Below are positions 7,168-20,001 of a DNA stretch of 64,000 nt, piece after piece. A model generated the notes under the pieces. The model saw only the letters and a list, made by a program, of their open reading frames with translations. It ran no database searches and was not told where the DNA came from. Made by a program: the position numbers and the translations under genes. Each line of letters opens with the position of its first letter. Position 1 is the first letter of the stretch. Source of the DNA: Bacteroidales bacterium (lineage in GTDB: Bacteria > Bacteroidota > Bacteroidia > Bacteroidales > JAIOZK01); contig JAIOZK010000021.1 in NCBI GenBank assembly GCA_021740625.1, positions 2,289 through 66,288 on the forward strand. The letters are read 5' to 3'.

Positions 7168-7252
7168 TCTAAATTTCATCAGCACACAATATTTTTGATA
7201 AGCAACCCTTTAGCATCTTGTGGTTGTCATACATCCCAAACGGATAAATCAG

Positions 7253-7260
7253 TACTTTTG
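7253..7260 (+). promoter_or_regulatory. -7 box TACTTTTG upstream of the DsbD-like gene
   Basis: tacttttg lies 10 nt upstream of the ATG at 7271, which implies a very short leader. Confidence 0.3.
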
Positions 7261-7270
7261 CATTTTGAAA

Positions 7271-9727
7271 ATGAGTAAAATGAAAATAACTACCAGGAAT
7301 TTATTTTTATATGCCGGAATTGCATTTACTTTTCTTTTCCTAACCAGCAATGGATTTGCACAGAGTGGTATTTTTGAACCGGTAAAATGGGAGTTCAGCA
7401 GTAAAAAGATCTCCGACACGGAAGCTGAACTGATCTTCCGTGCAGAAATTGAAAACAAATGGCATTTGTACTCGCAGGATATTCCCATGAGTCCTCCTGC
7501 CACAGGTTTTATCTTCGAAGAAAACGATACTTATAAACGTATTGGTGAAGTCATAGAAGTGAGTGAAGCCATTGAAGAATATGACCCCAACTTCGAGATG
7601 GAACTGAAGTATTTTGCGGAAGAAGCGGTCTTTAAACAAAAAGTGGAATTGACACCTGGTGTGCCTGTGACAATCAAAGGATATGTTGAATACATGTGCT
7701 GTGATGACACCCGTTGCTTGCCACCCACGGAAGAAGATTTCAGGTTCAGCTTTAACCAGCAGATGCCTCAGCAACAAAGCGGAATTCTTGAACCGGTAAA
7801 GTGGGAGAAAAGCCTCGAAAGGATTTCTGATGATACCTACGATCTTCACTTTAAAGCCAATATCGATCCTGGCTACCATTTATATACACAGGAAAAATTT
7901 GAGAATGGTCCCCTTCCAACCGAATTTATTTTTGAAGAAAGTAAAAATTACAAATTGCTGGGGAACCCTGAACCTGACAAAGCAGCGGTTACCGAATTTG
8001 ATGAGGTTTTTGAGCTTGAAATCGGATATTATGAAAATGAAGTAAGTTTTACCCAGAGAATTGAGATCGAAACACAAAAGGTTTTCAATATCAAAGGTGA
8101 GATCGCATATATGGTATGCAACGATGTTGGTTGTGTGTCGCTGTATGAGGATTTTACCTTTGCCTTTGAGGATGGTACTCCCGCCGATGCAAAAGCTGTG
8201 CTGGCAGATGCTGAAGAGGATTTTACAGGAAGCAACAAAAAGACACTTTGGGGCTTTTTTATCCTTTCATTCGTTTTTGGTTTAATAGCGATCCTGACGC
8301 CCTGTGTTTTCCCGATGATCCCGATGACGGTTTCTTTTTTCATGAAAGAATCCGGAAACAAAGGAAAAGCCAGAAGACAGGCAGTGGTGTACGGTATTTC
8401 CATCATTGTTATATATGTACTGGTTGGTTCGCTGCTTGCGATATTTCTGGGACCTGGATTTGCCAATTTCCTGAGCACGCACTGGCTCCCAAACATATTG
8501 TTCTTCCTGATTTTTATGATCTTTGCGGCTTCCTTCTTTGGAATGTTCGAACTGACCATTCCCAACTGGATGGTGAATAAATCCGATAAACAAGCCGATA
8601 GAGGTGGATTTGTGGGAGCTATCTTTATGGCGGTCACGCTGGTACTTGTTTCATTTTCGTGCACCGGGCCTATCGTTGGGATGATACTTGTTGAGTCGGC
8701 AGGTGGATTGGTACTGAAACCCATCGTTGGTATGCTGGGCTTTTCGCTTGCTTTTGCATTGCCTTTTACCTTATTTGCATTCTTTCCGCAATGGCTTTCC
8801 GGCTTGCCCAAATCCGGAGGATGGCTGAATTCAGTGAAAGTGATACTCGGTTTTATCGAGCTGGCCCTGGGTTTGAAGTTTTTAAGTGTGGCCGATCAGG
8901 TATACCACTGGGGCATTCTGGATCGTGAGGTTTACATTGCATTCTGGATCGTGATTTTTACTTTGATGGGATTTTATTTGCTCGGTAAACTGAAATTTGC
9001 ACATGATACTGATTTGAAATTTATCAGTGTTCCGAGGCTCACATTGTCCATCATTACCTTTAGTTTTGTTGTTTACCTGATACCCGGTATGTTTGGTGCT
9101 CCGTTGAAGGCTCTGTCAGGCTATCTTCCGCCGCAATCGACGCATGATTTTGATATCAATGCAATTGTTCGGAAAAATGTACAATTGTATTCGGGCAGCA
9201 TGTCAGAAAAAGCAAGCATTTCTAATACCAGGGATTTAAAAGAAACATGTGAAGATCCGAAATATTCTGACTTTTTGCATTTGCCTCATGGATTGGAAGG
9301 ATATTTTGACTTTGAGCAGGGCATGCGATGTGCCAAACAGTTGAATAAGCCGATTTTTATCGATTTCACCGGTCATGGTTGTGTGAATTGCCGTGAAATG
9401 GAAGCCAATGTCTGGGCTGATCCCGAAGTGCTGAAACGACTCAGGGATGATTACGTCATCATCGCATTGTACGTTGATGATAAAACGAAGCTTCCTGAGC
9501 AAGACTGGATCAAATCCGAATATGATGGTAAATTAAAAAAATCCATCGGGAAAAAGTACGCAGATTTTCAAATCAGTAGGTTCGGAGTGAATGCCCAACC
9601 GTTTTACGTCCTCATCGATCACAAAGGTGAAAAGCTGGTGCAGCCAAGAGCCTATGATCTTGACGTGGATGAGTTTGTTGATTTTCTCGACCGCGGTTTG
9701 AAAGAATTTAAGCGTAGAAGCAATTGA
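7271..9727 (+). CDS. DsbD-family thiol:disulfide reductase: two tandem N-terminal domains, a CcdA-like membrane core and a C-terminal thioredoxin domain
   Basis: A signal peptide is followed by two paralogous N-terminal modules (GIFEPVKWEF...YMCCDDTRCLPP and GILEPVKWEK...YMVCNDVGCVSL). The membrane core carries LTPCVFPMIP and FSCTGPIVG. The C-terminal thioredoxin domain carries FTGHGCVNCREME. Confidence 0.85.
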   Translation: MSKMKITTRNLFLYAGIAFTFLFLTSNGFAQSGIFEPVKWEFSSKKISDTEAELIFRAEIENKWHLYSQDIPMSPPATGFIFEENDTYKRIGEVIEVSEAIEEYDPNFEMELKYFAEEAVFKQKVELTPGVPVTIKGYVEYMCCDDTRCLPPTEEDFRFSFNQQMPQQQSGILEPVKWEKSLERISDDTYDLHFKANIDPGYHLYTQEKFENGPLPTEFIFEESKNYKLLGNPEPDKAAVTEFDEVFELEIGYYENEVSFTQRIEIETQKVFNIKGEIAYMVCNDVGCVSLYEDFTFAFEDGTPADAKAVLADAEEDFTGSNKKTLWGFFILSFVFGLIAILTPCVFPMIPMTVSFFMKESGNKGKARRQAVVYGISIIVIYVLVGSLLAIFLGPGFANFLSTHWLPNILFFLIFMIFAASFFGMFELTIPNWMVNKSDKQADRGGFVGAIFMAVTLVLVSFSCTGPIVGMILVESAGGLVLKPIVGMLGFSLAFALPFTLFAFFPQWLSGLPKSGGWLNSVKVILGFIELALGLKFLSVADQVYHWGILDREVYIAFWIVIFTLMGFYLLGKLKFAHDTDLKFISVPRLTLSIITFSFVVYLIPGMFGAPLKALSGYLPPQSTHDFDINAIVRKNVQLYSGSMSEKASISNTRDLKETCEDPKYSDFLHLPHGLEGYFDFEQGMRCAKQLNKPIFIDFTGHGCVNCREMEANVWADPEVLKRLRDDYVIIALYVDDKTKLPEQDWIKSEYDGKLKKSIGKKYADFQISRFGVNAQPFYVLIDHKGEKLVQPRAYDLDVDEFVDFLDRGLKEFKRRSN

Positions 9728-9819: not shown

Positions 9820-11541
9820 ATGAAGAATTATTTACTCAGTTTACTTTTGCTTTTCCTGGTCTTTGGCTTGAATGCACAAAACTTTACCAGCCTGGATCCC
9901 GGCTTCCCGGGACTGGATGAGGCATCATTGAGCCTTGGTGATTATGACAACGACAATGACCTGGATATCATCCTTAGCGGGCGGAAAAGCAATGATGAAC
10001 GGACCACAATCATATATCATAATGATAACGGGAATTATTCGCCCCTTGCCATGGGTTTGGTACCGGTGAAAACCGGAGCTACCTGCTGGGGTGATTATGA
10101 TGCGGATGGTGACCTGGACCTGCTGGTTACAGGAAATGATATCGATGGGGCTTCCGCCAGGATCTATAACAATAATGATGGAGCTTTTACGGATATACAA
10201 GCAGGACTGCAAGGTGTTGAGGAAGGAAATTCCGTTTGGGGTGATTTTGATAATGACGGTGATCTCGATCTGGTGCTGACTGGTGACTGGATCGCGAAAA
10301 TCTACCGCAATGACGATGGAGTTTTTATAGACCTGGAGATTGATTTCGGATATTTTAACAGCAGTGCTGCAGCATGGGGTGATTATGATCAGGATGGTGA
10401 TCTTGATCTTTTACTTACAGGCGACAGCGGGGCTGGAGCGGTGACATACATCTACCGGAATGATGAGGGTGAATTTGTGAAAATAGAAGCAGGACTGCCC
10501 GGAGTAATGGCCGGTGCCAGTGGATGGGTGGATTTTGATAATGATGCTGACCTGGATATTTTTCTTACCGGTTTCGATGATGCCCTGGAAGCAAAATTCT
10601 ATCGCTACAGGAATGATGGTCACGGCGTATTTGAACAAGTAACAGCCTGGATGCCGGGAGTTGCAAAATCTTCGGTAGCCTGGGGAGATATGGATAATGA
10701 TGGTGACCAGGATGTTGCATTTTGTGGCAAAGGATCCGGGTGTGGATTATACATCAATGGAATATACAGAAATGAAGGTGATTATTTTTCTGATATCAAC
10801 GTTGATATTTATCCTCTGACAGATGGTAAAATGGAATGGGCAGACTATGATAACGATGGTGACCTCGACCTGTTCTCAACAGGTGCCAGGGTAGATGAAA
10901 CCCCGCAAACTTTGATTTACCGGAATGACGCCGGAAGCAATACATTTCATCCCAATACTGCACCTTCGGGACCCACAGAATATGATACACAGGTTTTTGG
11001 AAACAGCGTTGAGTTTTCCTGGAATGCAGGTTCAGATAACGAAACACCCGCCGAAGGACTCACTTATAATATACGGGTGAGCACCATTTCGAATTCATGC
11101 AATGTATGGTCTCCGATGGCTGAAGAAATCGCTGGCTTCAGGCGTGTGGTTGGCAAAGGCAATGCCAGGCAGAACCAGAATTGGCGTTTGCAAGGATTGC
11201 CCGAAGGTGAGTATTTCTGGAGTATTCAAACCATTGACCAAGGCTGGGCAGGTTCCGGTTTTGTTGCAGAAAAGACATTCACGCTTACTACCACTTCGGT
11301 TTATGAAATGAACGCAACCGAAGATATTTTTATTTATCATGCGGCGGATAAATATATTGAATTAGATGATGACCTGCAGCAGAATAACAGGATCAGAGTG
11401 TTTGATGTACAGGGGAAAATGTTGCTTGATAAATCCAATGTGGATATAATTTCACTGCAGGATTACCATGCAGGGATTTACATTTTACATTATGCTGCTG
11501 CAGGGAAAACGGCTACGAAAAAAATCTCCGTTCTTGAATAA
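9820..11541 (+). CDS. FG-GAP/VCBS repeat protein with T9SS type A C-terminal sorting domain
   Basis: A signal peptide is followed by at least 7 repeats of WGDYDNDGDLDL-type calcium-binding loops. The C-terminus (RVFDVQGKMLL...GIYILHY...KKISVLE) resembles a Por secretion tail. Confidence 0.85.
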   Translation: MKNYLLSLLLLFLVFGLNAQNFTSLDPGFPGLDEASLSLGDYDNDNDLDIILSGRKSNDERTTIIYHNDNGNYSPLAMGLVPVKTGATCWGDYDADGDLDLLVTGNDIDGASARIYNNNDGAFTDIQAGLQGVEEGNSVWGDFDNDGDLDLVLTGDWIAKIYRNDDGVFIDLEIDFGYFNSSAAAWGDYDQDGDLDLLLTGDSGAGAVTYIYRNDEGEFVKIEAGLPGVMAGASGWVDFDNDADLDIFLTGFDDALEAKFYRYRNDGHGVFEQVTAWMPGVAKSSVAWGDMDNDGDQDVAFCGKGSGCGLYINGIYRNEGDYFSDINVDIYPLTDGKMEWADYDNDGDLDLFSTGARVDETPQTLIYRNDAGSNTFHPNTAPSGPTEYDTQVFGNSVEFSWNAGSDNETPAEGLTYNIRVSTISNSCNVWSPMAEEIAGFRRVVGKGNARQNQNWRLQGLPEGEYFWSIQTIDQGWAGSGFVAEKTFTLTTTSVYEMNATEDIFIYHAADKYIELDDDLQQNNRIRVFDVQGKMLLDKSNVDIISLQDYHAGIYILHYAAAGKTATKKISVLE

Positions 11542-11561: not shown

Positions 11562-12272
11562 TTATCGTATTTTCTGTACATACGGATTTCTCCTTCTTAT
11601 CAAACGGTTTTGTGTTCTTTTGAATGATTTGTTATTCCCTTCGGAAATGGAATTCAGGAAATCCCTGGCCTTGCTGAAGTTTCCCAGTTCGCGATAGATC
11701 TCAAGCATGTAATATATATCATCAGGGTTGACTTCCGGATTGAGCAATTTTAGCAGTTGTTGCAAGTTTTCTTCCTTATCCTTCAGCCATGATTTATATT
11801 CCCGGTAGTTGCGGTGTAGTTTTTTGCAATTCCTGAACGGTTTAAATAGGTAGTTTACCGCATCCATGAACTTGCTTCTTTTGCTTCCGATCCCCGACTC
11901 AAACCTGATCAGGTCATTGGTCTTCCACCAGTATAAAATCCTTAACTGGTATTCCTCATCTTTGTTGAGCCCTTTCATAATTTTCAGTGCCAGCTTATAA
12001 TCAGCAATTTGAGGATGGCGCTCCTCGAAGCTCAGGTCTTCATAATCGTAGGTTTCATCTTCATCCTGCAAAACTGCTGATTCGAATAAATAAAATCCAC
12101 TGCATTGTCTGCATTTGATCAGGACAGGATCAAAACTGATCATTCCACTGATGACATCCGTTTTGCCATCCGTGTAATTCTCGCATTCGTGTATGGTGCC
12201 CGACATGCCCATGTAGTGGGAGGATTTCAAATGGCAATGAGGACATACAATATTCACAGGTTCCAGTATCAT
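11562..12272 (-). CDS. Hypothetical protein with N-terminal CxxC...CxxC zinc ribbon, acidic linker and helical (TPR-like) C-terminal half; last gene of the E2/JAB/E1 operon
   Basis: CPHCH is separated by about 40 aa from CRQC. The acidic stretch QDEDETYDYEDLSFEE follows, then helical repeats such as DDIYYMLEIYRELGNFSKARDFLNSI and a basic tail. I recognise no family. Confidence 0.55.
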   Translation of the reverse strand: MILEPVNIVCPHCHLKSSHYMGMSGTIHECENYTDGKTDVISGMISFDPVLIKCRQCSGFYLFESAVLQDEDETYDYEDLSFEERHPQIADYKLALKIMKGLNKDEEYQLRILYWWKTNDLIRFESGIGSKRSKFMDAVNYLFKPFRNCKKLHRNYREYKSWLKDKEENLQQLLKLLNPEVNPDDIYYMLEIYRELGNFSKARDFLNSISEGNNKSFKRTQNRLIRRRNPYVQKIR

Positions 12273-12336
12273 ATTGTTGGTTATTATGAATTATATACTT
12301 TATTATAAAGGTATTGCTGCATGTGCTGCTTACCTT

Positions 12337-12792
12337 TTAATCAATCATTTTAGTTGCCAGCCAAACGGAGTAAAGACCATATAAGAAGGACCAGACATAT
12401 GGCCAAACACTCAAGTCATTATCCCAGAGCATTCCGATGGTATAAGGGACTGCGAAGATCAGGAATGCATAGAGGAAAGCATACAGTTTGTATCTGCTTT
12501 CATTCCTGTATGCCAATCCTTCCAGTGCCCCGCTAATATAGATCGGGAACAGGATGAGGTTCAGGATCATTGCAACTGTAGAAAAAGTACCGGCATTCCA
12601 CCAGCTCAGGTTAAAGATAAATCCGCCCAACCAGCCGATACCTGAAAGGATCAGAACAAACAACACGGAAACAATGATCACGGAGATGAAACCAAGGAAA
12701 AAACCAATATTTTCCGAAGGGCTTTCGGTATTTACCGGTGTAAACTGCCTTACATGCCTTCTAATGATCCTTCCGTCGGGTCCTATTGCCAT
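12337..12792 (-). CDS. Small integral membrane protein, about 4 predicted TM helices
   Basis: About 30 polar N-terminal residues are followed by four hydrophobic segments rich in aromatic residues. The ATG lies 3 nt after the E1-like stop. Confidence 0.6.
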   Translation of the reverse strand: MAIGPDGRIIRRHVRQFTPVNTESPSENIGFFLGFISVIIVSVLFVLILSGIGWLGGFIFNLSWWNAGTFSTVAMILNLILFPIYISGALEGLAYRNESRYKLYAFLYAFLIFAVPYTIGMLWDNDLSVWPYVWSFLYGLYSVWLATKMID

Positions 12793-12795
12793 GGT

Positions 12796-14127
12796 TTACT
12801 GCTTAGCACAAAGTTTACAATTCCTGTTTTTATCTACTTCTATACTGGTTGTTACCTGCAGGGGATAGGAAAAAATTTCGGCCTGCTCTCCGCCAATTTC
12901 TTTCTTGTTGGTATTGGAGACCAGTGTAAACTGCGTGAGATCATCCAGAACTCTTGGTACAAATTTTTCGTTATTCCTGTTCAGTATATCCAGAATGATC
13001 TTTAGGCCGACATTGGTTACGAAATTTATATCGACCGAAATGCCCGGCATAAAACTGACTTTTGAAAGATCCTGCTGCGTTGTGTAAAAACGCCGGTTGA
13101 CTGATTCCCTTGCAGAAAGATCGCCGAGGGCTTCCGTAAAGCATTTGTAGCAGGCCAGTTCCTTTTGCCCTGGTATCCAGTAAAAGATTTCACCGGCAAA
13201 AGCCCTTTCCCAGAAACCGATCGAAACCATAGGGATTCGGTAATGAGCTGCAATTTTATTGGCAAAGAGGTCACCCTGCCGGTTATCGGCACAGCCTATG
13301 ATGATGCTGTCCTTATTACAATTCCTTTTGAAGGATTCAGGTAAAACATTTTCAATAATCTCATTTTGACATTCAACTCTGGCTTCCGGGTTGATGAGCC
13401 GGATCCTTTCTGCAACTGCATTGGTTTTGAAATTTCCTACATCTGGAATATTGCACTGGTGCCTGCAAACATTGGCATAGCTGAGGATGTCGTTGTCGAT
13501 CAGCAAGAAACGGCCAACTCCTGAACGGGCCAGTTCAAGTGCCACATAACTTCCCACCGAGCCACAGCCACTGATGATGGCTGTTTTGTCCTGCATCATA
13601 TCGGTTTCAAGGATGCCTGTATTTCTTGAGAATACATCCAGTTGGAGACTGTAATTTTCCAGTTTGCATTGTTCAATACCCTTGTTGCTGAGTTGAAAGA
13701 AAAGTTGTTCGTCCCGCTGGTATGCACCCAGAATAAATGAGTCGCTTGGTATATCTCTCGCAAGCTCATGCGATTTTAGGAATGAAATGATGTTTTCAAC
13801 ACTTTCTGCAGAAATATTTTTGAATTCCTGATCAAGTCTTTGTTCCAATAGCTTTTTTGAGGAAGTCCCCAGAAATACACCTTTTGTGCAGGCAGCTTTC
13901 CGGTCAAAAACAGTGTGGTGCCATACTTTTTTCGTCTCGTAAACTTCTGTAAAGTCGACAATGTTGTAGGTATTGGTGTTTTCGAAGTAATATCCTTTCA
14001 GGAGATAATCATTATCAGGATCCAGATTTGCAGGTGCAATGACGCTGGGAGAAAAGTGTTTTTCTTTTCTCAATGAAATCCTGTTTAGCTTTTTGATCAA
14101 TTCCGGTTGACTGTTTTTTTGATTCAT
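12796..14127 (-). CDS. ThiF/MoeB/E1-like adenylating enzyme with about 170-aa N-terminal extension
   Basis: The Rossmann loop reads ISGCGSVGSYVALELARSGVGRFLLIDND. Other E1-type motifs are YANVCRHQ and IIGCADNRQ. The two CxxC pairs (ACYKCF and CKLCAKQ) match the ThiF/MoeB zinc site. Confidence 0.85.
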   Translation of the reverse strand: MNQKNSQPELIKKLNRISLRKEKHFSPSVIAPANLDPDNDYLLKGYYFENTNTYNIVDFTEVYETKKVWHHTVFDRKAACTKGVFLGTSSKKLLEQRLDQEFKNISAESVENIISFLKSHELARDIPSDSFILGAYQRDEQLFFQLSNKGIEQCKLENYSLQLDVFSRNTGILETDMMQDKTAIISGCGSVGSYVALELARSGVGRFLLIDNDILSYANVCRHQCNIPDVGNFKTNAVAERIRLINPEARVECQNEIIENVLPESFKRNCNKDSIIIGCADNRQGDLFANKIAAHYRIPMVSIGFWERAFAGEIFYWIPGQKELACYKCFTEALGDLSARESVNRRFYTTQQDLSKVSFMPGISVDINFVTNVGLKIILDILNRNNEKFVPRVLDDLTQFTLVSNTNKKEIGGEQAEIFSYPLQVTTSIEVDKNRNCKLCAKQ

Positions 14128-14981
14128 GCCTGCTTGTTTTTTTGTTTATTTCCATTTTCAAGACCGGCTGTTTTATAAAGATGGTCAATGAATAGTCCTT
14201 CCCGATAGGGATATTGCTCATGATCATTCGACAAGAGAGTGCATAATCCGTTTTCAAAACTGATGTTCCATTCTATTTTTTGGGGTAATTTTTTTCCGAT
14301 TAACTTTTTTTGCAGCAAACATGTGTAATGAATTGTATGCTCGTCAATACGTTCAAATTCGCAGTTATATAATTTTTGTTTTTCGAGTGCTTCATTTTCA
14401 AGTATCAGCAGGTTCAATGTTTCTTCCGGTATTTCATCCATGTTCTCTGTTTTCTCCTGCACTGGTTTTACAATAGATCCCTTGTCTTTGTATTTTTTCT
14501 GGAGAAATGCTTGAGGTATGACTTCATCAGAAACTTCAAATGCAGTTTTAGTATATACCAGCTTATCATTTACATGATAGAGTGTGAATCTTAATTCGGG
14601 ATCAATATTTACAAGGCCTGAAATAGCACCATGTTTGGATTTGCGGGCAAATTCCAGGTTGGTTTCATCATCGGTTGCGCTGAATTTATCAAAACTGCCG
14701 GGATGCCGGTGCCAGAGTCCCAGCAACTTCAGCTTCTTTCTGTACCGGCGTGCACGGGCATTTGCCAGGTAGTTTACAAAGGCATGATCATACTCAAAAT
14801 AGTGTTGCTTAAAAACCGATTCCGGACCGGGTTCAATAGATTCGATCACATACCAGGTACCATTTTCAATCTGGCCAAGCAATATCCCGCCGGTTTCCAC
14901 CGGATGTTTGTGCATGCTTTCGGTAATAATGGTATTAAATGCATCGGTTGTGATCAGTACTTTTTTACATACTTCATTCAT
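14124..14981 (-). CDS. JAB/MPN (JAMM) metalloisopeptidase with about 130-aa C-terminal extension
   Basis: The catalytic Glu is in HPVETGGILLG. The canonical HxHx7Sx2D motif is WHRHPGSFDKFSATD (H91, H93, S101, D104). The stop overlaps the E1 start as ATGA. Confidence 0.85.
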   Translation of the reverse strand: MNEVCKKVLITTDAFNTIITESMHKHPVETGGILLGQIENGTWYVIESIEPGPESVFKQHYFEYDHAFVNYLANARARRYRKKLKLLGLWHRHPGSFDKFSATDDETNLEFARKSKHGAISGLVNIDPELRFTLYHVNDKLVYTKTAFEVSDEVIPQAFLQKKYKDKGSIVKPVQEKTENMDEIPEETLNLLILENEALEKQKLYNCEFERIDEHTIHYTCLLQKKLIGKKLPQKIEWNISFENGLCTLLSNDHEQYPYREGLFIDHLYKTAGLENGNKQKNKQA

Positions 14982-14992
14982 CAGTTGAAGAA

Positions 14993-15607
14993 TTAGAAGG
15001 TGTGTGACTGGAATTCTTCTGTTGTGACTTTTCCGTCGAGCCAGAGCTCAAAAACGGTAATCCATTTTACCGCCCAGGCTATGGCGGAAGCTGCAGATGA
15101 ACTTTCCTGCGGACTTGCATGGAAGTCTTGCTGGCGGGCCGTACATATGTATAGATGTTTATTTTCGTCGACCAGCATATGCGGAATTCCGCCAATTTCT
15201 TTGGCCATGGCTTCCAGATCAGGATCAATGGAGTAAATCCTGATGGAACCGCCATAGCTGGTATTGTCGGGATGATTATTCTGATAGATTACCTGTAAAT
15301 ACCATTCCCTGTCAGGATTCAGCACTTTTGTTTTTACCCCACCGTGCCAGAAAAGACGGCCATCATCCAGTTTTTCCAACTGGAAATGGGGAAAAAAACG
15401 CTCCATGGCGTTTTTTTCCTCCTTTAAAAGTTCGGGATCATTTTCGTACCATTGATAGGCAAGCTTTCCTTTTGGAATTTCAATTCCGTCATCTTTGCCT
15501 TCTTCATCAACTTCACCGTCTTTTTTAATGGTTACTTTTTTCCCTTTTTTTAACTTCTCGGCCAGCCTTTTGCGTGCTTCTTCGGCTGAATCTTTTGAGT
15601 TTGACAT
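14993..15607 (-). CDS. Prokaryotic E2-like (UBC-fold) protein, tentative
   Basis: A Lys/Glu-rich N-terminal tail of about 45 aa is followed by FPHFQLEKLDDGRLFWHGG, then NHPDN (HPN-like), then GGIPHMLVDENKHLYIC. Cys155 is the only Cys in the protein. The gene lies 11 nt upstream of the JAB gene. The call rests on motif pattern and operon context only. Confidence 0.6.
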   Translation of the reverse strand: MSNSKDSAEEARKRLAEKLKKGKKVTIKKDGEVDEEGKDDGIEIPKGKLAYQWYENDPELLKEEKNAMERFFPHFQLEKLDDGRLFWHGGVKTKVLNPDREWYLQVIYQNNHPDNTSYGGSIRIYSIDPDLEAMAKEIGGIPHMLVDENKHLYICTARQQDFHASPQESSSAASAIAWAVKWITVFELWLDGKVTTEEFQSHTF

Positions 15608-15632
15608 AATATTGATTTATTGGTTATTTTTC

Positions 15633-16142
15633 TCATCCAATGGTTTGTATTACACCATTGTTATTGATGTAATCCTCGAGCAGGTCTGTAAAACCATCGT
15701 ATACGATCTGGGTTTCCCATTCTGTGGGAAATGTTTCATGCCAGATGTCGTATACCTTGCTTTCAGTTTCATCTTCATCGTAAGGCCATCGAAAAGCCAG
15801 GTATTCCTGGCCGCTTGTATGCATAAAAGGTATATATCTTTTACCATCTTCGTGGAACTTATGCTCAATCCTTTCATAAGCTGATCTTATTTCCTGCAGG
15901 CTTAAAATATAGTTGCTGTTCCATGCACTGGATTCGATGTCGTCAGTCTTAGCAGGTCCAAGCAAACTGATGAACCCGCCATTAAAATGACACAGAAAAA
16001 CCTTGAAAGAAACAGGAAAGACATAGATCAGGTCATCTTCCAAACTTTCTATTTCGTCCCATTCGGCTGGTGCATTAAAAAAGCATTGATCCGGATTGGT
16101 TTCAATCTTTTGTTTTAATCTATCGACAAGTTTATCTATCAT
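15633..16142 (-). CDS. SUKH-1 (SMI1/KNR4-like) domain protein ending in ...GVIQTIG-stop
   Basis: FPVSFKVFLCHFNGGF and YIPFMHTSGQEYLAF match SUKH hallmark segments. The start is set at MIDKLV (16142) because a TATATTTG box sits at 16186-16193 inside the longer ORF. The alternative start is 16196. Confidence 0.6.
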   Translation of the reverse strand: MIDKLVDRLKQKIETNPDQCFFNAPAEWDEIESLEDDLIYVFPVSFKVFLCHFNGGFISLLGPAKTDDIESSAWNSNYILSLQEIRSAYERIEHKFHEDGKRYIPFMHTSGQEYLAFRWPYDEDETESKVYDIWHETFPTEWETQIVYDGFTDLLEDYINNNGVIQTIG

Positions 16143-16185
16143 GAAGGGATATTCTGGTTTGTAGCATTTTGCGGACAGGCCTGAG

Positions 16186-16193
16186 CAAATATA
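16186..16193 (-). promoter_or_regulatory. Candidate -7 box TATATTTG for the SUKH/E2/JAB/E1 operon
   Basis: The plus strand reads caaatata, which is TATATTTG on the minus strand, about 43 nt upstream of the ATG at 16142. An out-of-frame ATG at 16167 lies in between, so this call is uncertain. Confidence 0.3.
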
Positions 16194-16328
16194 CATGAAT
16201 CAGTGAAGACAATTTGAGCAGCAATATGACAACAAGCCTGGCCATATTTTTCAATAAAAAGGCAATCATATTTAGTAATTGATCATGTAAAATTATACAT
16301 TATCAGTAAGAGATCAAAAACAATGACT

Positions 16329-17114
16329 TTATTTATACTCGTTCTTTTTGGCTTTTTCCCAGTAAACATCCATTTCGGTCAGACTCATGTCTTTCAGGTT
16401 CTTTCCCAGTTTCTTGATTTCTTTTTCGAGATACTGAAATCGTTTGATGAATTTTTTATTGGTTCTTTCCAGGGCATCTTCCGGGTTAACATCGATAAAC
16501 CTGGCGTAATTCACGAGGGCAAACAGGAGGTCGCCCAGTTCATGTTCTATTTTTTCTTTGTCATGACCGTTGTTCACTTCAGCTTTTAGCTCATTCAATT
16601 CTTCAATCACTTTATCCCATACCTGGCTGGGGATTTCCCAGTCGAAACCAACACCTTTGGCTTTTTCCTGAATACGATAAGCTTTTACAAGTGGTGGCAG
16701 GGACACGGGCACCCCACCAAGCACCGATTTACGGCCTTCCTGAAGTTTGATTTTTTCCCAGTTATCTTTTACTTCTTTGGCATTGGCAACTTTTGTTTCT
16801 CCGTAGATATGAGGATGTCTTTTGACAAGCTTTTCGTTGATTCCCCGCAAAACATCTTCAATCTGAAAAGCCTGTTTTTCGGAAGCTATTTTTGTGTAGA
16901 ATACCAGATGCAACATCAGGTCGCCAAGTTCTTTCCTGATCCCGTCCATGTCCTGCTCAAGAATAGATTCGGAGAGTTCATAAGTTTCCTCTATGGTAAG
17001 ATGCCTTAAGCTTTCCAGGGTTTGTTTGCGGTCCCATGGGCATTTCTCCCGCAATTCATCCATGATGTCCAGCAATTTTTCAAATTGCCTTATCGCTTCC
17101 TTCCTGTCTTTCAT
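16329..17114 (-). CDS. mazG: Nucleoside triphosphate pyrophosphohydrolase MazG (tandem MazG domains)
   Basis: The N-terminus reads FEKLLDIMDELREKCPWDRKQTLESLRHLTIEETYEL. A second EExGD-type repeat (ELGDLLFALVNYARF) is present. Confidence 0.9.
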   Translation of the reverse strand: MKDRKEAIRQFEKLLDIMDELREKCPWDRKQTLESLRHLTIEETYELSESILEQDMDGIRKELGDLMLHLVFYTKIASEKQAFQIEDVLRGINEKLVKRHPHIYGETKVANAKEVKDNWEKIKLQEGRKSVLGGVPVSLPPLVKAYRIQEKAKGVGFDWEIPSQVWDKVIEELNELKAEVNNGHDKEKIEHELGDLLFALVNYARFIDVNPEDALERTNKKFIKRFQYLEKEIKKLGKNLKDMSLTEMDVYWEKAKKNEYK

Positions 17115-17115
17115 T

Positions 17116-20001
17116 TTATTGCTCTTTGTTTCTATCCGTATATAATTTTCCGATCAATTGGTCGGCCTTATATGGTTTTCTTAAATAGTCATCAATACCG
17201 GCCTGATAAAACCTTTCCTCATCTCCTTCCATGGCGTATGCTGTCACTGCCACAATCCGGGTAGGATCCTGACCTTTCTCTTTTTCCATTTGGCGTATAT
17301 TCCTGGTTGCCTCGATTCCGTCCATCACTGGCATTTGTATATCCATTAGTATAACATCATAATCATTTTTATCAAAATATTCTACACCTATCTTCCCGTT
17401 TTCAGCTACATCAATTTGATGCTTGTATTTTTTTAATATGGCGATCGCAAATTTCTGATTAAGCAAATTGTCTTCGACGAGTAAAATATTCAATGGTTTT
17501 TCATTCTCAGTTTCCATGTTATTCTTGCCTTTCTCTCTGTTTTCCTTTGTTTCTTCATTTGTGGGCTGTTTATGGTCTTTTTTGAATTTTACGGTAAACC
17601 AGAATTTTGAGCCTTTTCCTTCTTCACTCTCCAATCCAATCTCACCATTCATCAATTGTACAAAATGTTTGGAAATTGCCAGTCCAAGGCCTGATCCCCC
17701 GTATTTACGAGCAATGCTCTGGTCGGCCTGCGAAAAGGCCTGGAATAGTTTGTCTCTTTGTTCGACCGAGACACCAATCCCGGTGTCGATCACCTGGAAC
17801 TTTGCCAGCAGATTGTTTTCGTCCTCATCCAGGACTTCAGAATGTATGCTAATGATTCCGTTTTTTGTGAATTTAATGGCATTGTTGACCAGGTTGATCA
17901 GTATCTGTGTCAGCCGGTAGGGGTCTCCTAATATGTCATTGTTAAGTTTTTTGTCAATCCTGAAATCGATCTTATTGTTTGAATCCCTGGCTTTTACTTC
18001 AAGCAATGATACCACCTCCTCCATCACTTCTGTCAGGTTAATTTCAACTTCTTCAAGTTTTAATTGTCCGGATTCAATTTTGGCAAAGTCGAGGATATTA
18101 TTGATCAGGTTTAATAAATTATTACCTGAGATATTGATGATGTCGGTACATTCTTTTTGTTCTTTTGTAAGTTCTGTTTCTTCCAGGATACTGGTTACTC
18201 CGATGATGCTGGTGAGAGGTGTCCTGATTTCATGACTCAGACTGGCCAGGTACATGGATTTGGCATCCAGTGCTTTTTGCATTTCATCCCTGGCTTTCTT
18301 AAGTTCTCTTTCCATATTTAACCTTTCGGTTACGTTTCTGGCGATCATCAGAAAGGTTCCGTCCTCGATAGGGGTAATGCGCAGCTCCATGTCAAGCTTT
18401 CGCATGTTAACCCAATCGTTGTGCATGAATACCTGTACTTTATTTTCCTTTGATGCTCTGCTGATGCCCTGCAGGATTTTGTTGGCAAATTCTTCGGGCA
18501 GCTCTTTTTTTACATTGCTTCCAATCAGGGAATTGCCTGTCTTAATAATGTCTTTATCTTTCTTTGCATGATAATAGATGTAGTTGCCCTTTGCATCAAA
18601 AATGAACATCACGTCAGGAATTGCTTTCAGTATTGCATTGGTTTTGCGTTGGTTTTCCTGTAATTCAAGAAGTGTTCTTTCCTGCAATTCACGTTGCCTG
18701 ATTACTTCCTTGTTTTTCTCAAGCAGGGTTTTGTTAACTTTCTTTTTTTGCCGGTTGCTGTTAAAGATAATAAACAACAAAAGGATAATCAGCAGAATAA
18801 CAAACAATAATACTACAATCGTGTATGAGTACCTGAGTTGTTTCAGATTATTGCGATTTTGAATTTCTTCGATTTCCTGCTCCTTTTCATAGTTCATTTG
18901 AAGTTTTGCCAGCCGCTCTTTTGTTTCCATATTGTGCAGTGAATCGGAAATCTGCTGATATTTTTTGTAATACTGATAGGCATCTTTGTACAAACCTGAT
19001 ATGGCACAGTTTTCTGCCAGATTACGGTAAATATCAACAGCCAGGATTTTATATCCATTTTCTGTGGCGAGCCGGAGTGCTTTCTGATAATCAGCACGTG
19101 CTTTTTTGAATTCCTTTTTAATGTCTTCGATGAGAGCCATGTTGTTGTACAGAATAGCAATTTGGTAAAAATCATTGAGCTTTTGCGCTATTTCAACCGA
19201 TTGTTGATAATAATAAATGGCAGAATCATAATTTGCACGTTCATAATGAAACACGCCAAGATTATTCAAAATGAGGGTTATGTTGCGAAAGTTTTCTATA
19301 TCCCGGTAACCTTGAAGTGCTTCGAAGTAGGCTGTTCTTGCAGAATCAATATTACCCAATTCTTCATACACACTTCCCATGTTCATGTATGATGTGGCCA
19401 TCCCATTGGTGCTGCCTGTTTCCCTGAAATAGCCAAGTGCTCTTTTAAAATTTTTTAAGGCACTGCTCAAATTGCCGTTTAAATAGTACACATTGCCTAT
19501 CTTGATGAAGGTTCTTGCGTAAGAATTGATATCGGGCAGCTCCTCTCGAATATCCTGGCTCTGGTATAATACGGTGAGGGCTGAATCCAACTTCCCCGAT
19601 CTGGCGAAGGCTTCTCCTGTTTTATCAAGAATTTCTGCAAGTTTTTCCTGGTTGTCATCCGGAGGCAAATGCAGATATGCTTTCTTCAGCATCGCCAATG
19701 CTTCATCCAGCAAGCCCTTGTCCAGGGCCAGGGTACCTTTATTGTAACTGACCCTGGCAATCAAACTGTCAATATCAGTGTTAATGGCAATTTGAAGTGC
19801 TGTATCCATGTAAGTTTCCGATAATCCGGGATCAATATCATGAAAGGCTTCGGAGAGCAAAATGTAAGTGTTTACTCTTTCTGAGCTTTCTTGATTTTTC
19901 AGGGCATTCAACAGGCTGTCTGTTTTCTGGGCTGATGCCCAAAAAACAATCAAGCTGGCCGCGAAAAAGAAAAACAATTTTATCAGTCCAGGTTTTTTCA
20001 T
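17116..20001 (-). CDS. Hybrid sensor histidine kinase/response regulator with periplasmic TPR array
   Basis: In order, the protein has a signal peptide, multiple TPR repeats, a TM segment (IVVLLFVILLIILLLFIIF), a PAS-like region, the H-box SHEIRTPLTSIIG, HATPase N/G boxes and a C-terminal receiver (LLVEDNLLNQ...DVILMDIQMPVMDG). Confidence 0.9.
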   Translation of the reverse strand: MKKPGLIKLFFFFAASLIVFWASAQKTDSLLNALKNQESSERVNTYILLSEAFHDIDPGLSETYMDTALQIAINTDIDSLIARVSYNKGTLALDKGLLDEALAMLKKAYLHLPPDDNQEKLAEILDKTGEAFARSGKLDSALTVLYQSQDIREELPDINSYARTFIKIGNVYYLNGNLSSALKNFKRALGYFRETGSTNGMATSYMNMGSVYEELGNIDSARTAYFEALQGYRDIENFRNITLILNNLGVFHYERANYDSAIYYYQQSVEIAQKLNDFYQIAILYNNMALIEDIKKEFKKARADYQKALRLATENGYKILAVDIYRNLAENCAISGLYKDAYQYYKKYQQISDSLHNMETKERLAKLQMNYEKEQEIEEIQNRNNLKQLRYSYTIVVLLFVILLIILLLFIIFNSNRQKKKVNKTLLEKNKEVIRQRELQERTLLELQENQRKTNAILKAIPDVMFIFDAKGNYIYYHAKKDKDIIKTGNSLIGSNVKKELPEEFANKILQGISRASKENKVQVFMHNDWVNMRKLDMELRITPIEDGTFLMIARNVTERLNMERELKKARDEMQKALDAKSMYLASLSHEIRTPLTSIIGVTSILEETELTKEQKECTDIINISGNNLLNLINNILDFAKIESGQLKLEEVEINLTEVMEEVVSLLEVKARDSNNKIDFRIDKKLNNDILGDPYRLTQILINLVNNAIKFTKNGIISIHSEVLDEDENNLLAKFQVIDTGIGVSVEQRDKLFQAFSQADQSIARKYGGSGLGLAISKHFVQLMNGEIGLESEEGKGSKFWFTVKFKKDHKQPTNEETKENREKGKNNMETENEKPLNILLVEDNLLNQKFAIAILKKYKHQIDVAENGKIGVEYFDKNDYDVILMDIQMPVMDGIEATRNIRQMEKEKGQDPTRIVAVTAYAMEGDEERFYQAGIDDYLRKPYKADQLIGKLYTDRNKEQ

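What the first reader, a model, noticed from the sequence alone, without database searches (positions are those of the whole stretch)
11562..16196. Six-gene operon built around an E2-like / JAB / E1-like core with no ubiquitin-like gene and no CD-NTase
Seen in the sequence: six co-directional minus-strand genes are packed tightly. The order is SUKH protein, then a 25-nt gap, E2-like, an 11-nt gap, JAB, an ATGA overlap, E1-like, a 3-nt gap, 4-TM protein, a 64-nt gap and a zinc-ribbon protein. The JAB protein has a complete JAMM site: Glu in HPVETGG and HxHx7Sx2D in WHRHPGSFDKFSATD. The E1-like protein has the GxGxxG Rossmann loop, CRHQ, CADN and two CxxC pairs. The E2-like protein has an HPN-like NHPDN flap and a single Cys in IPHMLVDENKHLYIC. 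Established knowledge: bacterial E1+E2+JAB cassettes are known as accessory modules of type II CBASS. There, Cap2 is an E2-E1 fusion, Cap3 is a JAB protease, and the substrate is the CD-NTase C-terminus. They are also known from Bil-type operons (Ubl, E2, JAB, E1). Both are antiphage systems. In this operon E1 and E2 are separate genes, no nucleotidyltransferase is present, and no ORF of 60 aa or more in or next to the cluster looks like a beta-grasp Ubl. The partners are instead a SUKH protein, a small multi-TM protein and a zinc-ribbon protein. Inference: this is a distinct conjugation-type system, plausibly a defence or conflict system, whose modifier and target are not obvious. The cluster sits between housekeeping mazG and a convergent FG-GAP gene. 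It has no integrase, tRNA or flanking direct repeats that I could see. It looks slightly more AT-rich than its surroundings by eye, but I did not compute this.
Basis: partly seen in the sequence, partly recalled or inferred. Interest (0 to 1): 0.9.

Follow-up and report, generated by a model that had tools for sequence, protein, structure and literature searches.

The report
Ubiquitin-like tagging cassette with hidden mini-tag
The six genes are real, but only four form a widespread, apparently undescribed ubiquitin-like protein-tagging cassette, and its "missing" tag seems to be a 50-residue peptide fused to the front of the E2 enzyme.

Summary
The six minus-strand genes, their spacing and the catalytic motifs are confirmed. 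The E2 has a UBC fold closest to the CBASS E2. The E1 matches Cap2 over nearly its whole length, so E2 plus E1 is a split Cap2, and the JAB is Cap3-like. There is no CD-NTase and no separate Ubl gene.

In about 90 related loci from many phyla the conserved unit is four genes: E2, JAB, E1 and a membrane protein. SUKH and the zinc-ribbon gene form an independent pair. Syntenic genomes keep that pair but lack E2-JAB-E1 (or E2-JAB-E1-TM).

The main new result is a roughly 47-residue unit ending P-x-G-K-L-A directly before every E2 core (window E2 residues 1-50). It occurs once, as near-identical tandem copies, or as a separate small ORF that stops exactly after GKLA. This is the polyubiquitin / Ubl-E2 (BubAB) design. 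It is predicted to be a helix plus a disordered tail, not a beta-grasp.

The downstream membrane proteins share an N-terminal motif (window: IGPDGRIIRR), which is lost where E2-JAB-E1 are lost. About a third of loci lie next to type VII secretion-like genes; the window does not.

Verdict: an apparently undescribed variant of bacterial ubiquitination-like systems. The modifier is inferred, and the target and biological role are unknown.

The parts
15633..16142 (-). SUKH (SMI1/KNR4) protein, 169 aa from Met19 (the longest ORF reaches 16196). It is an accessory gene, not part of the conserved cassette. It ends ...NNNGVIQTIG.
   Evidence: Pfam SMI1_KNR4 7.7e-11. The NCBI protein and its homologues are 166-169 aa and almost all end T(I/M)G. 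Members with the same C-terminus also occur without E1/E2/JAB. It pairs with the zinc-ribbon gene in loci that lack the cassette.
15458..15607 (-). Candidate mini-modifier: residues 1-50 of the E2 ORF (MSNSKDSAEEARKRLAEKLKKGKKVTIKKDGEVDEEGKDDGIEIPKGKLA). The inferred JAB cleavage site is after Ala50 (GKLA|YQWYE).
   Evidence: My unit HMM hits here at 7e-15 and in 85 of 92 loci. In relatives the unit is single, tandemly duplicated, or a separate ORF that ends at GKLA-stop. P45, G47, K48, L49 and A50 are at least 90% conserved. AlphaFold2 predicts helix 7-20 followed by a disordered stretch 23-50.
14993..15457 (-). E2 (UBC-fold) core, residues 51-204 plus the stop codon. It has the H112-P113 flap and catalytic Cys155 (nt 15143-15145).
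   Evidence: PADLOC CBASS E2 7e-13. PF26395 on the identical protein. The AlphaFold2 core has pLDDT about 88, and Foldseek's best hit is CdnG-E2 8yjy_B, followed by eukaryotic E2s. C155, H112, P113 and H143 are invariant.
14124..14981 (-). JAB/JAMM metallopeptidase (Cap3-like), residues about 1-120, followed by about 165 further residues. Residues about 165-285 form an unassigned C-terminal domain specific to this clade.
   Evidence: Prok-JAB 3.3e-10. PADLOC JAB 1.4e-13 and NCBIfam Cap3. Active-site motifs are kept in 77/77 relatives. The long form (276-287 aa) occurs in loci with SUKH and the short form (180 aa) in loci without it. The C-terminal domain shows no similarity to the E2 family.
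12796..14127 (-). E1 adenylating enzyme: a Cap2-like N-terminal domain (residues about 28-160) plus a ThiF adenylation domain (about 165-443).
   Evidence: ThiF 9e-26. PADLOC CBASS E1-E2 1e-29 over residues 91-312. The AlphaFold2 model's best Foldseek hits are E. cloacae Cap2 7tqd/7to3 with 430-438 aligned columns, then BubCD, UBA5 and MccB. There is no conserved Cys in the crossover region; conserved residues there are Y327, S338, R340, N344 and Y348.
12337..12792 (-). Small membrane protein (151 aa). It carries the N-terminal motif IGPDGRIIRRH (residues 3-13, nt 12754-12786). It is the fourth gene of the conserved cassette.
   Evidence: The gene after E1 is a membrane protein in most loci. 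The N-motif scores 19.5 bits here. It occurs in the first 45 residues of 76/303 downstream genes against 8/416 other genes. The homologue in L095, which lacks E2-JAB-E1, is 53% identical but has lost the motif.
11562..12272 (-). Zinc-ribbon (CPHC...CRQC) plus helical TPR-like protein, 236 aa. It is an accessory gene that pairs with SUKH rather than with the cassette.
   Evidence: No Pfam family matches it. The family has about 300 representatives, with C10, C13, C54 and C57 invariant across 36 aligned members. None of 59 further loci has an E2 or JAB, and 5 have a SUKH gene. It follows the cassette in Prolixibacter (L003/L005) and lies just downstream of E1 in one Victivallis locus (L033).

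Best explanation
The core is a four-gene protein-conjugation cassette, here nested inside an unrelated SUKH / zinc-ribbon gene pair.

Shown by computation:
- The E2 and E1 together are a Cap2 (CBASS E2-E1 ligase) split into two genes.
- The JAB is Cap3-like.
- All catalytic motifs are conserved.
- The gene order E2-JAB-E1-membrane protein is kept across many phyla.

Inferred mechanism:
1. The E2 is made as a precursor. Its first 50 residues are the modifier: a short helix followed by a flexible tail ending P-K-G-K-L-A.
2. The JAB peptidase cuts after Ala50 (GKLA|YQWYE). This releases the mini-modifier and the mature E2, as the BubCD JAB domain does with the Ubl-E2 fusion BubAB.
3. The E1 adenylates the new C-terminal Ala and passes it to E2 Cys155.
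4. The E2 attaches it to a target, and the JAB can remove it again.

Most speculative step: the target, or docking partner, is the small membrane protein encoded after E1. Its extreme N-terminus carries a conserved motif (IGPDGRIIRR) that is shared by the membrane proteins downstream of E1 in most related loci.

The biological role is unknown. The frequent linkage with EssC-like ATPase and WXG100-like genes suggests control of a membrane or secretion process rather than classical nucleotide-signalling defence.

Confidence by step: about 0.9 that this is a member of the widespread four-gene family, about 0.6 that the unit is the modifier, and about 0.3 that the membrane protein is the target.
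For: Enzyme identities and folds.

Conservation of order and active sites: in 84 loci, E2 is present in 80, JAB in 82 and E1 in 84.

The unit:
- It is found in 85 of 92 loci, always directly before the E2 core.
- The tail is GKLA in 120 of 134 units.
- Arrangements in 84 loci: 25 with one unit plus E2; 40 with two tandem units plus E2, the boundary being exactly GKLA|next unit; 11 in Firmicutes and Actinobacteria with a separate 60-77-aa ORF that stops at the unit's GKLA end (one has a single extra Ala), followed by an E2 starting at the core; 3 with the unit followed by a Cys-rich domain.
- Tandem copies within one protein are a median 94% identical, against 35% between loci, as in polyubiquitin.

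Precedents:
- The Type I Bub Ubl-E2 fusion is cleaved by its JAB after the C-terminal Gly (PMC11601596).
- Cap2 conjugates a non-beta-grasp substrate through a disordered C-terminal tail (bioRxiv 10.1101/2022.03.31.486616).
- JAB-E1 fusions exist in this family (P0020, P0021).

The N-motif:
- It is enriched at the N-termini of downstream genes: 76/303 against 8/416, in 58 of 81 loci.
- It is lost in the membrane-protein homologue of a syntenic genome that lacks E2-JAB-E1.
Against: - There is no experiment. Cleavage, adenylation and conjugation are all inferred.
- The unit is not a beta-grasp and is predicted with low confidence (pLDDT below 50 for residues 23-50). It could be a regulatory or docking extension of E2 rather than a modifier.
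- A C-terminal Ala rather than Gly is unusual for Ubl systems.
- The E1 has no conserved Cys in the crossover region, so the transfer chemistry is unclear.
- The N-motif matrix was trained on 38 of the sequences it then scores, so that test is partly circular.
- The cytoplasmic N-terminus of the window's membrane protein has no Lys, so any acceptor would have to be the alpha-amine or another residue.
- The SUKH, membrane-protein and zinc-ribbon genes persist without E2-JAB-E1 in relatives. The membrane protein therefore has a function that does not need conjugation.
Confidence: 0.55

Rival explanations
1. The N-terminal unit is only a docking or regulatory extension of the E2 (for example, it binds E1, the membrane or EssC). 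The real substrate of E1 is another protein encoded elsewhere, as the CD-NTase is for Cap2.
For: The unit is predicted to be largely disordered. Parts of it (helix plus the G-x-V segment, without the GKLA tail) occur in other proteins of related loci (L015, L019, L038, L083). CBASS shows that the substrate need not be Ubl-like.
Against: A docking extension does not explain three things. The first is that separate ORFs stop precisely after GKLA in two phyla. The second is that tandem copies abut exactly at GKLA. The third is that a JAB peptidase is retained in nearly every locus. No other conserved candidate with a conserved C-terminus was seen among the neighbouring genes.
Confidence: 0.2
2. 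The cassette is a CBASS-derived antiphage or abortive-infection system. Conjugation switches on the small membrane protein as a membrane-disrupting effector.
For: The closest enzymes are CBASS Cap2, Cap3 and E2. The distribution across phyla is patchy. There is clean presence/absence polymorphism between syntenic genomes. An integrase lies next to the module in some Firmicutes loci. All characterised bacterial E1/E2/JAB operons are defence systems (PMC11601603).
Against: There are no PADLOC hits other than to the shared enzymes, and none for the membrane protein or the zinc-ribbon protein. Here the cluster lies among housekeeping genes and is syntenic in related genomes. The recurrent neighbours are EssC-like and WXG100-like genes, not defence genes. 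It is rare in viral contigs and absent from plasmids. This rival concerns the role and is compatible with the proposed chemistry.
Confidence: 0.25
3. The SUKH protein is the substrate. Its conserved C-terminal glycine (..T-I-G) is adenylated and conjugated, like the CD-NTase C-terminus in CBASS, and SUKH sits where BilA sits in Bil operons.
For: Nearly all members of this small SUKH clade end T(I/M)G, and one has a single extra residue after the Gly. SUKH lies directly upstream of E2 in the window, L003, L089 and L090. The long JAB form co-occurs with SUKH.
Against: SUKH proteins with the same C-terminus occur without any E1/E2/JAB (L092, L094, L095, L100, L101). Most cassettes (about 80 loci) have no SUKH. 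The tail differs from the GKLA tail that is universal in the family.
Confidence: 0.07
4. This is a RiPP-like pathway. An MccB/PaaA-type E1 modifies the C-terminus of a short ribosomal peptide, the JAB acts as leader peptidase, and the membrane protein exports the product or gives immunity.
For: MccB and PaaA are among the sequence and structure hits of the E1. The candidate substrate is a short peptide rather than a folded Ubl.
Against: The E1 aligns best, and over nearly full length, with Cap2. An E2 with an invariant Cys is always present and is fused to the peptide. No transporter or other tailoring enzyme is conserved in the loci.
Confidence: 0.05

Closest known systems
Type II CBASS accessory module (Cap2 E2-E1 ligase plus Cap3 JAB) and the E2-only CBASS regulator (CdnG-E2)
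   Same: These are the closest enzymes by profile and by fold. E1 matches Cap2 over about 430 columns, E2 matches CdnG-E2, and the JAB matches Cap3 models. In both systems the substrate is not a beta-grasp protein and is used through a flexible C-terminal tail.
   Different: There is no CD-NTase and no nucleotide-activated effector. Cap2 is split into separate E2 and E1 genes. The candidate substrate is a roughly 50-residue peptide fused to the E2. The conserved partner is a small membrane protein with an N-terminal motif.
Type I Bub operons (formerly 6E/DUF6527): BubAB Ubl-E2 fusion, BubCD JAB-E1 fusion, BubE
   Same: The modifier is encoded as an N-terminal fusion to the E2 and is released by the JAB (shown for Bub, inferred here). 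The modifier can be present in several tandem copies. JAB-E1 fusions occur in some relatives. The E1 crossover loop lacks a conserved Cys and has a conserved Tyr.
   Different: [quoted passage not shown] The Bub E2 uses Ser, whereas this E2 has an invariant Cys. No DUF6527/BubE protease is present. The E1 and E2 here are closer to Cap2 than to BubCD/BubB.
Bil operons (BilABCD; types I and II, formerly 6d and 6c)
   Same: E2, JAB and E1 are separate genes in the order E2-JAB-E1. The JAB is proposed to pre-process the modifier.
   Different: There is no bilA gene and no beta-grasp. The E1 has a single adenylation domain with a Cap2-like N-domain, not a tandem IAD/AAD with a CYS domain. The E2 belongs to the E2-CBASS family.
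Pupylation (Pup)
   Same: In working principle only: a small, intrinsically disordered modifier with a conserved C-terminal tail.
   Different: The enzymes are unrelated (PafA/Dop against E1/E2/JAB), and there is no sequence similarity.
Type VII secretion systems and their ubiquitin-like subunit (EsaB/YukD); 'mobile T7SS' with a YueA-like ATPase and solo WXG proteins (Zhang et al. 2012, PMC3482391)
   Same: About a third of related cassettes lie next to a 1150-1270-aa FtsK/SpoIIIE ATPase and WXG100-like small proteins. T7SS variants normally include a non-conjugated ubiquitin-like protein (PMC11217815).
   Different: The window has no EssC or WXG100 homologue. No published T7SS scheme that I could read includes E1, E2 or JAB genes.

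Membership tests
Type II CBASS | A CD-NTase (cGAS/DncV-like nucleotidyltransferase) gene in the operon | tested here: not met
   None of the six proteins has a nucleotidyltransferase hit in Pfam, NCBIfam or PADLOC. The flanking genes are mazG, a hybrid kinase, an FG-GAP protein and DsbD.
Type II CBASS | Cap2 as a single E2-E1 fusion protein | tested here: not met
   E2 (204 aa) and E1 (443 aa) are separate genes with the JAB gene between them. Together they match Cap2.
Type II CBASS | Cap3-type JAB peptidase with an intact JAMM site | tested here: met
   Prok-JAB 3.3e-10, with PADLOC JAB and NCBIfam Cap3 hits below their cut-offs. The motifs are conserved in 77/77 relatives.
E2-CBASS domain family (Pfam PF26395) | A match to the family model and a UBC fold with a catalytic Cys | tested here: met
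   PF26395 is precomputed on the identical protein P0121 and on all 92 homologues. Foldseek's best hit is CdnG-E2. Cys155 is invariant. The local Pfam copy lacks this model.
Bil (BilABCD) | A separate beta-grasp Ubl gene (bilA) upstream of the E2 | tested here: not met
   The upstream gene is a SUKH protein. The unit HMM finds its only copy inside the E2 ORF. That unit is modelled as a helix plus a disordered tail.
Bil (BilABCD) | E1 with tandem inactive and active adenylation domains and a mobile CYS domain | tested here: not met
   The AlphaFold2 model has one adenylation domain plus a roughly 130-residue N-domain. The best structural matches are Cap2, not canonical E1s.
Bub type I | Modifier-E2 fusion protein processed by a JAB | tested here: inconclusive
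   The fusion architecture is present. Processing is inferred only. The modifier is not a beta-grasp.
Bub type I | DUF6527 (BubE) serine protease and an E2 catalytic Ser | tested here: not met
   There is no DUF6527 hit, and the E2 has an invariant Cys.
6A-MBL | [quoted passage not shown] | tested here: not met
   There are only partial, sub-threshold matches to NF058523 (53-63 bits against a cut-off of 320). The genes are separate and there is no MBL gene.
Type VII secretion-like locus | An EssC/YueA-like FtsK-SpoIIIE ATPase and WXG100 proteins nearby | tested here: not met
   tblastn of the EssC-like and WXG-like proteins of L085 and L087 against the whole 64-kb window gave nothing below E = 0.2. 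The feature is met in 27 of 84 related loci.
SUKH (SMI1/KNR4) superfamily | A match above Pfam's gathering score | tested here: met
   SMI1_KNR4 43.1 bits (cut-off 25.4) and SUKH_6 32 bits (cut-off 27).
Polymorphic toxin / immunity pair | A toxin domain encoded directly upstream of the SUKH immunity gene | tested here: not met
   The gene upstream of SUKH is mazG (PAP2 in relatives). No toxin domain was detected in any of the six proteins.

The most novel reading that the evidence does not exclude
This would be a widespread bacterial ubiquitination-like pathway that does not use a beta-grasp protein. It occurs in gut Bacteroidales, Prevotella, Lachnospiraceae, Collinsella and many environmental phyla. 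Its tag is a roughly 47-residue, largely disordered peptide ending GKLA. The tag is encoded as a polyprotein with its own E2, released by a JAB peptidase, activated by a split Cap2-type E1/E2, and attached to (or docked on) small membrane proteins marked by an N-terminal motif. The pathway would control a membrane process such as type VII-like secretion.
Probability: 0.4. Interest if true: 0.9.

Novelty: new variant of a known kind. Interest (0 to 1): 0.8.

Why it matters
All bacterial E1/E2/JAB pathways characterised so far use either a beta-grasp Ubl (Bil, Bub) or a whole enzyme (the CD-NTase in CBASS) as the thing that is conjugated.

A third solution would widen the idea of what a ubiquitin-like modifier can be: a short disordered peptide made as single or tandem copies fused to the E2. 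It would also show polyubiquitin-style gene organisation arising independently.

The family is large. There are 135 species-level genome loci, and at least 120 protein clusters at 41% identity or more. It is common in human and animal gut bacteria and is annotated only as 'ThiF family' or 'hypothetical'.

Its frequent linkage with EssC/WXG100 genes in Gram-negative Bacteroidota also bears on an open question: what these 'mobile type VII-like' loci do, and why canonical T7SS carry a ubiquitin-like subunit.

The proposal can be tested directly, because cultured strains carry the cassette (Prolixibacter bellariivorans, Bacteroides nordii, B. congonensis, Dysgonomonas, Olsenella uli).

Tried and rejected
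1. SUKH as the modifier because of its conserved terminal Gly. Rejected as the main reading, because the same C-terminus occurs in loci without E1/E2/JAB.
2. A shared motif between the SUKH tail (INNNGVIQT) and the membrane-protein N-motif. The matrix gives negative or low scores for the SUKH tails, so this was dropped.
3. The JAB C-terminal domain as an inactive E2/RWD-like domain. hhalign against the E2 family gave a probability of 0.1%, so it stays unassigned.
4. A hidden beta-grasp in E2 or E1. The AlphaFold2 models show none.
5. The zinc-ribbon protein as a conserved component. Rejected, because none of 59 further loci has an E2 or JAB. It has no Pfam or PDB relative.
6. A genomic-island reading. 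GC is not distinct, there is no tRNA, integrase or flanking repeat, and the locus is syntenic in related genomes.
7. Plasmid or phage carriage. There are only distant plasmid ThiF hits, one unannotated faecal 'phage' fragment and 4 IMG/VR contigs.
8. Sigma-70 promoter and terminator scans were at or below shuffled expectation and do not suit Bacteroidota.
9. Literature searches for an E1/E2/JAB link with T7SS, or for a Cap2/Cap3 system without a CD-NTase, found nothing. Three Aravind-lab papers that might mention it are not held.

Full report
**Observation.** The gaps and the overlap are as stated (25, 11, -4, 3 and 64 nt). Profile searches confirm SUKH (SMI1_KNR4 7.7e-11), Prok-JAB (3.3e-10) and ThiF (9e-26). 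The E2 gave nothing in the local Pfam copy. It hits nine PADLOC CBASS 'E2' models (best 7e-13), and the identical database protein carries PF26395 E2-CBASS. GC content inside the cluster (0.39-0.44) does not differ from the surroundings. There is no tRNA in the first 30 kb and no flanking direct repeat. The SUKH gene most likely starts at Met19, giving 169 aa as in the NCBI record and its homologues.

**The enzymes.** An AlphaFold2 model of the E2, built on 44 homologues, has a confident UBC core (pLDDT about 88). Its best PDB match is the E2 of the Serratia CdnG-E2 CBASS complex, followed by eukaryotic E2s. Cys155, His112-Pro113 and His143 are invariant. The E1 model has a well-folded N-terminal domain (residues 28-160, pLDDT 87-96) and a ThiF adenylation domain. 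Its best matches are the two E. cloacae Cap2 structures with 430-438 aligned columns, then BubCD, UBA5 and MccB. A PADLOC Cap2 model also aligns to E1 residues 91-312, upstream of the adenylation domain. E2 plus E1 is therefore a Cap2 split into two genes, with a Cap3-like JAB between them.

Across the related loci the JAMM motif is intact in 77/77. GCGSVG is present in 84/85, CRHQC in 83/85 and ADNR in 81/85. The two CxxC pairs occur together in only 30/85 and are otherwise lost together, which fits a structural zinc site. In 80 distinct E1 sequences there is no conserved cysteine in the crossover region. The conserved residues there are Y327, S338, R340, N344 and Y348. This recalls BubCD, which uses a crossover-loop tyrosine (PMC11601596). 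I did not test that parallel.

**What is conserved.** The E1 has at least 120 database clusters at 41-64% identity. It also has 135 confirmed loci among GTDB species representatives. These come from Bacteroidota, Firmicutes, Actinobacteria (Collinsella, Olsenella), Thiomargarita, Cyanobacteria, Planctomycetes, Treponema, Victivallis, Anaerolineae and Fraserbacteria.

I called ORFs in 84 loci and searched them with iterated HMMs of the six window proteins. E2 was found in 80 loci, JAB in 82 and E1 in 84, always in the order E2-JAB-E1. In most loci one or more membrane proteins follow. SUKH was found in 2 of these loci and the zinc-ribbon protein in 3. Sequence homologues of the window's membrane protein were found only in the closest clade. 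Further contigs of that clade show two forms. One has SUKH and a long JAB (276-287 aa; window, L003, L089, L090). The other has no SUKH and a 180-aa JAB (L001, L091).

**The six genes are a four-gene cassette inside a two-gene pair.** Two records (L095 from a Bacteroidota MAG, and L100) share the window's chromosomal context: kinase, mazG (90% identical), PAP2, then FG-GAP and DsbD downstream. Both carry SUKH (58%), the membrane protein (53%) and the zinc-ribbon protein (59%), but no E2, JAB or E1. A metagenomic contig (L101) is syntenic with Prolixibacter bellariivorans (SUKH 71%, zinc-ribbon 63%, P-type ATPase 88%). In it, SUKH and the zinc-ribbon gene are only about 68 nt apart, whereas Prolixibacter has the 3.5-kb block E2-JAB-E1-TM between them. 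Of 59 further zinc-ribbon loci, 20 of them at least 8 kb long, none has an E2 or JAB, while 5 have a SUKH gene. SUKH proteins of this small clade also stand alone. SUKH and the zinc-ribbon protein are therefore an independent pair. E2-JAB-E1(-TM) is a dispensable cassette, most simply explained by repeated loss from a six-gene ancestor.

**The hidden modifier.** Alignment of the E2 proteins showed a unit of about 47 residues directly in front of every E2 core. In the window it is DSAEEARKRLAEKLKKGKKVTIKKDGEVDEEGKDDGIEIPKGKLA, followed by YQWYENDPELL. An HMM of this unit finds it in 85 of 92 loci and only once in the window. The last four residues are GKLA in 120 of 134 units.

Among 84 loci with complete units:
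- 25 have one unit fused to the E2 core, including the window.
- 40 have two tandem units fused to the core, with the junction exactly GKLA|next unit.
- 11, from Firmicutes and Actinobacteria, encode the unit as a separate 60-77-aa ORF. It stops at the unit's GKLA end (one, L076, has one extra Ala) and is followed by an E2 that begins at the core (MAGFYWYER...).
- 3 have the unit followed by a Cys-rich zinc-finger-like domain.
- 5 are more complex; three of these have three or more complete units.

Tandem units within one protein are a median 94% identical, against 35% between loci. This is the pattern of polyubiquitin genes. In the E2 model the unit is a helix (residues 7-20) followed by a low-confidence, extended stretch (23-50). 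It is not a beta-grasp, yet its sequence is strongly conserved.

The same design has been shown experimentally in Type I Bub operons. There the Ubl is fused to the E2, and the JAB domain of BubCD cuts immediately after its C-terminal glycine (PMC11601596). Cap2 shows that enzymes of this lineage can use a non-Ubl substrate through a disordered tail. I therefore infer that residues 1-50 of the E2 ORF are the modifier. It would be released by the JAB after Ala50, adenylated by E1 and carried on Cys155.

**The membrane partner.** The proteins encoded after E1 are diverse in sequence, and most have 1-7 predicted membrane segments. They nearly always begin with a short motif such as INEFGEIIR, DQYGRIIRR or, in the window, IGPDGRIIRR. 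A position matrix built from 38 examples scores at least 10 bits in the first 45 residues of 76/303 downstream genes, against 8/416 other genes, and in 58 of 81 loci. This test is partly circular. In L095, which has lost E2-JAB-E1, the membrane-protein homologue keeps the rest of its sequence but not the motif (MPEAPKKQVIQQTVRQY... against MAIGPDGRIIRRHVRQF...). This ties the motif to the enzymes. Whether it marks the conjugation target, a docking site or a JAB site is unknown.

Many JAB proteins, and a second E2-HMM-positive protein in some Bacteroidales loci, carry membrane segments themselves. The system therefore probably works at the membrane.

**Genomic company.** In 27 of 84 loci the cassette lies within 8 kb of a 1150-1270-aa FtsK/SpoIIIE ATPase, together with WXG100-like and other small helical proteins. 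This is the 'mobile T7SS' noted in a footnote of Zhang et al. 2012 (PMC3482391). The window has no such genes. The survey of T7SS variants that I could read does not mention E1, E2 or JAB genes (PMC11217815). The E1 is absent from plasmids and nearly absent from phage and viral collections.

**Comparison and novelty.** The known bacterial E1/E2/JAB operon classes are 6a (MBL), 6b (type II CBASS), 6c and 6d (Bil II and Bil I) and 6e (Bub) (PMC1779556, PMC10557695, PMC11601603). The present cassette fails the defining features of each (see the membership table). It shares the enzymology of CBASS and the precursor logic of Bub type I. I found no description of it, but several relevant subscription papers could not be read.

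I rate it a new variant of a known kind. I have high confidence in the family and its four-gene core, moderate confidence (about 0.6) that the unit is the modifier, and low confidence about the target and the role.

Noticed in passing
L085-L088, L004, L016, L022, L043 and others (27 of 84 related loci): The E2-JAB-E1 cassette sits beside a 1150-1270-aa FtsK/SpoIIIE (EssC/YueA-like) ATPase, WXG100-like 90-95-aa proteins and further small helical proteins. This occurs in Gram-negative Bacteroidales as well as in Firmicutes and Actinobacteria. It is a type VII-like locus that has not been linked to ubiquitin-like enzymes in the papers I could read.
   Followed up: partly
L011, L012, L017, L021, L031, L040, L054 (between JAB and E1): A second protein of 380-440 aa with 4-6 predicted membrane segments hits the E2/unit HMM. 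In many loci the JAB itself is 450-636 aa with 1-5 membrane segments. Parts of the machinery are therefore membrane-anchored in Bacteroidales.
   Followed up: no
L050, L087, L088 (gene before the E2): The unit ending GKLA is followed in the same ORF by a Cys-rich CxxCxGxG-type zinc-finger-like domain instead of the E2 core (GKLA|DHTCRCCGGSGKMKCPRCDGTG...). This resembles ubiquitin fused to other proteins.
   Followed up: no
L014, L024, L061, L064, L049 (start of the first unit): The few residues before the first unit often look like a degenerate copy of the tail motif (for example MNKIFIPKGRLA|EDD..., MNQTLYVPTGFLA|AEED...). It is as if the N-terminus were also a processing site.
   Followed up: no
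window 12918-12920 (E1 residue 404): This position is Cys in 94% of 80 family members (TLVCNTN) but Ser or Ala in the window's clade. The window's clade is also among the minority (30 of 85) that keep both CxxC pairs.
   Followed up: no
window 15633-15665 (SUKH C-terminus) and P0213-P0230: A very small SUKH clade (18 clusters in 5.8 billion proteins) has a strictly conserved C-terminal tail, ..NG-x-I-x-T-(I/M)-G-stop, beyond the Pfam domain. It is present even where no E1/E2/JAB is nearby, and this is unexplained.
   Followed up: partly
L103, L115, L117: More distant zinc-ribbon/TPR homologues lie close to a different, 354-358-aa SUKH-domain protein on the opposite strand (adjacent in L115; one or two membrane-protein genes lie between them in L103 and L117). 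This suggests a general SUKH / zinc-ribbon partnership of unknown function.
   Followed up: no
window 7220-9727 (+): A DsbD-like thiol:disulfide interchange protein (835 aa) has two similar N-terminal segments of about 125 residues (..SGIFEPVKWEFS.. and ..SGILEPVKWEKS..) before the membrane domain and a C-terminal thioredoxin-like part.
   Followed up: no
window 9820-11541 (+) and 16329-20001 (-): The flanking genes are an FG-GAP/VCBS-repeat protein convergent with the cluster, and mazG plus a 961-aa TPR-containing hybrid sensor kinase upstream on the same strand. The same neighbours occur in L089, L095 and L100, so the locus is chromosomal and vertically inherited.
   Followed up: partly
L004, L087, L088 (Blautia and other Firmicutes): A tyrosine integrase (Phage_integrase) and an HTH regulator lie directly upstream of the unit-E2-JAB-E1-EssC block. 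In Firmicutes the whole block may therefore ride on an integrated element.
   Followed up: no
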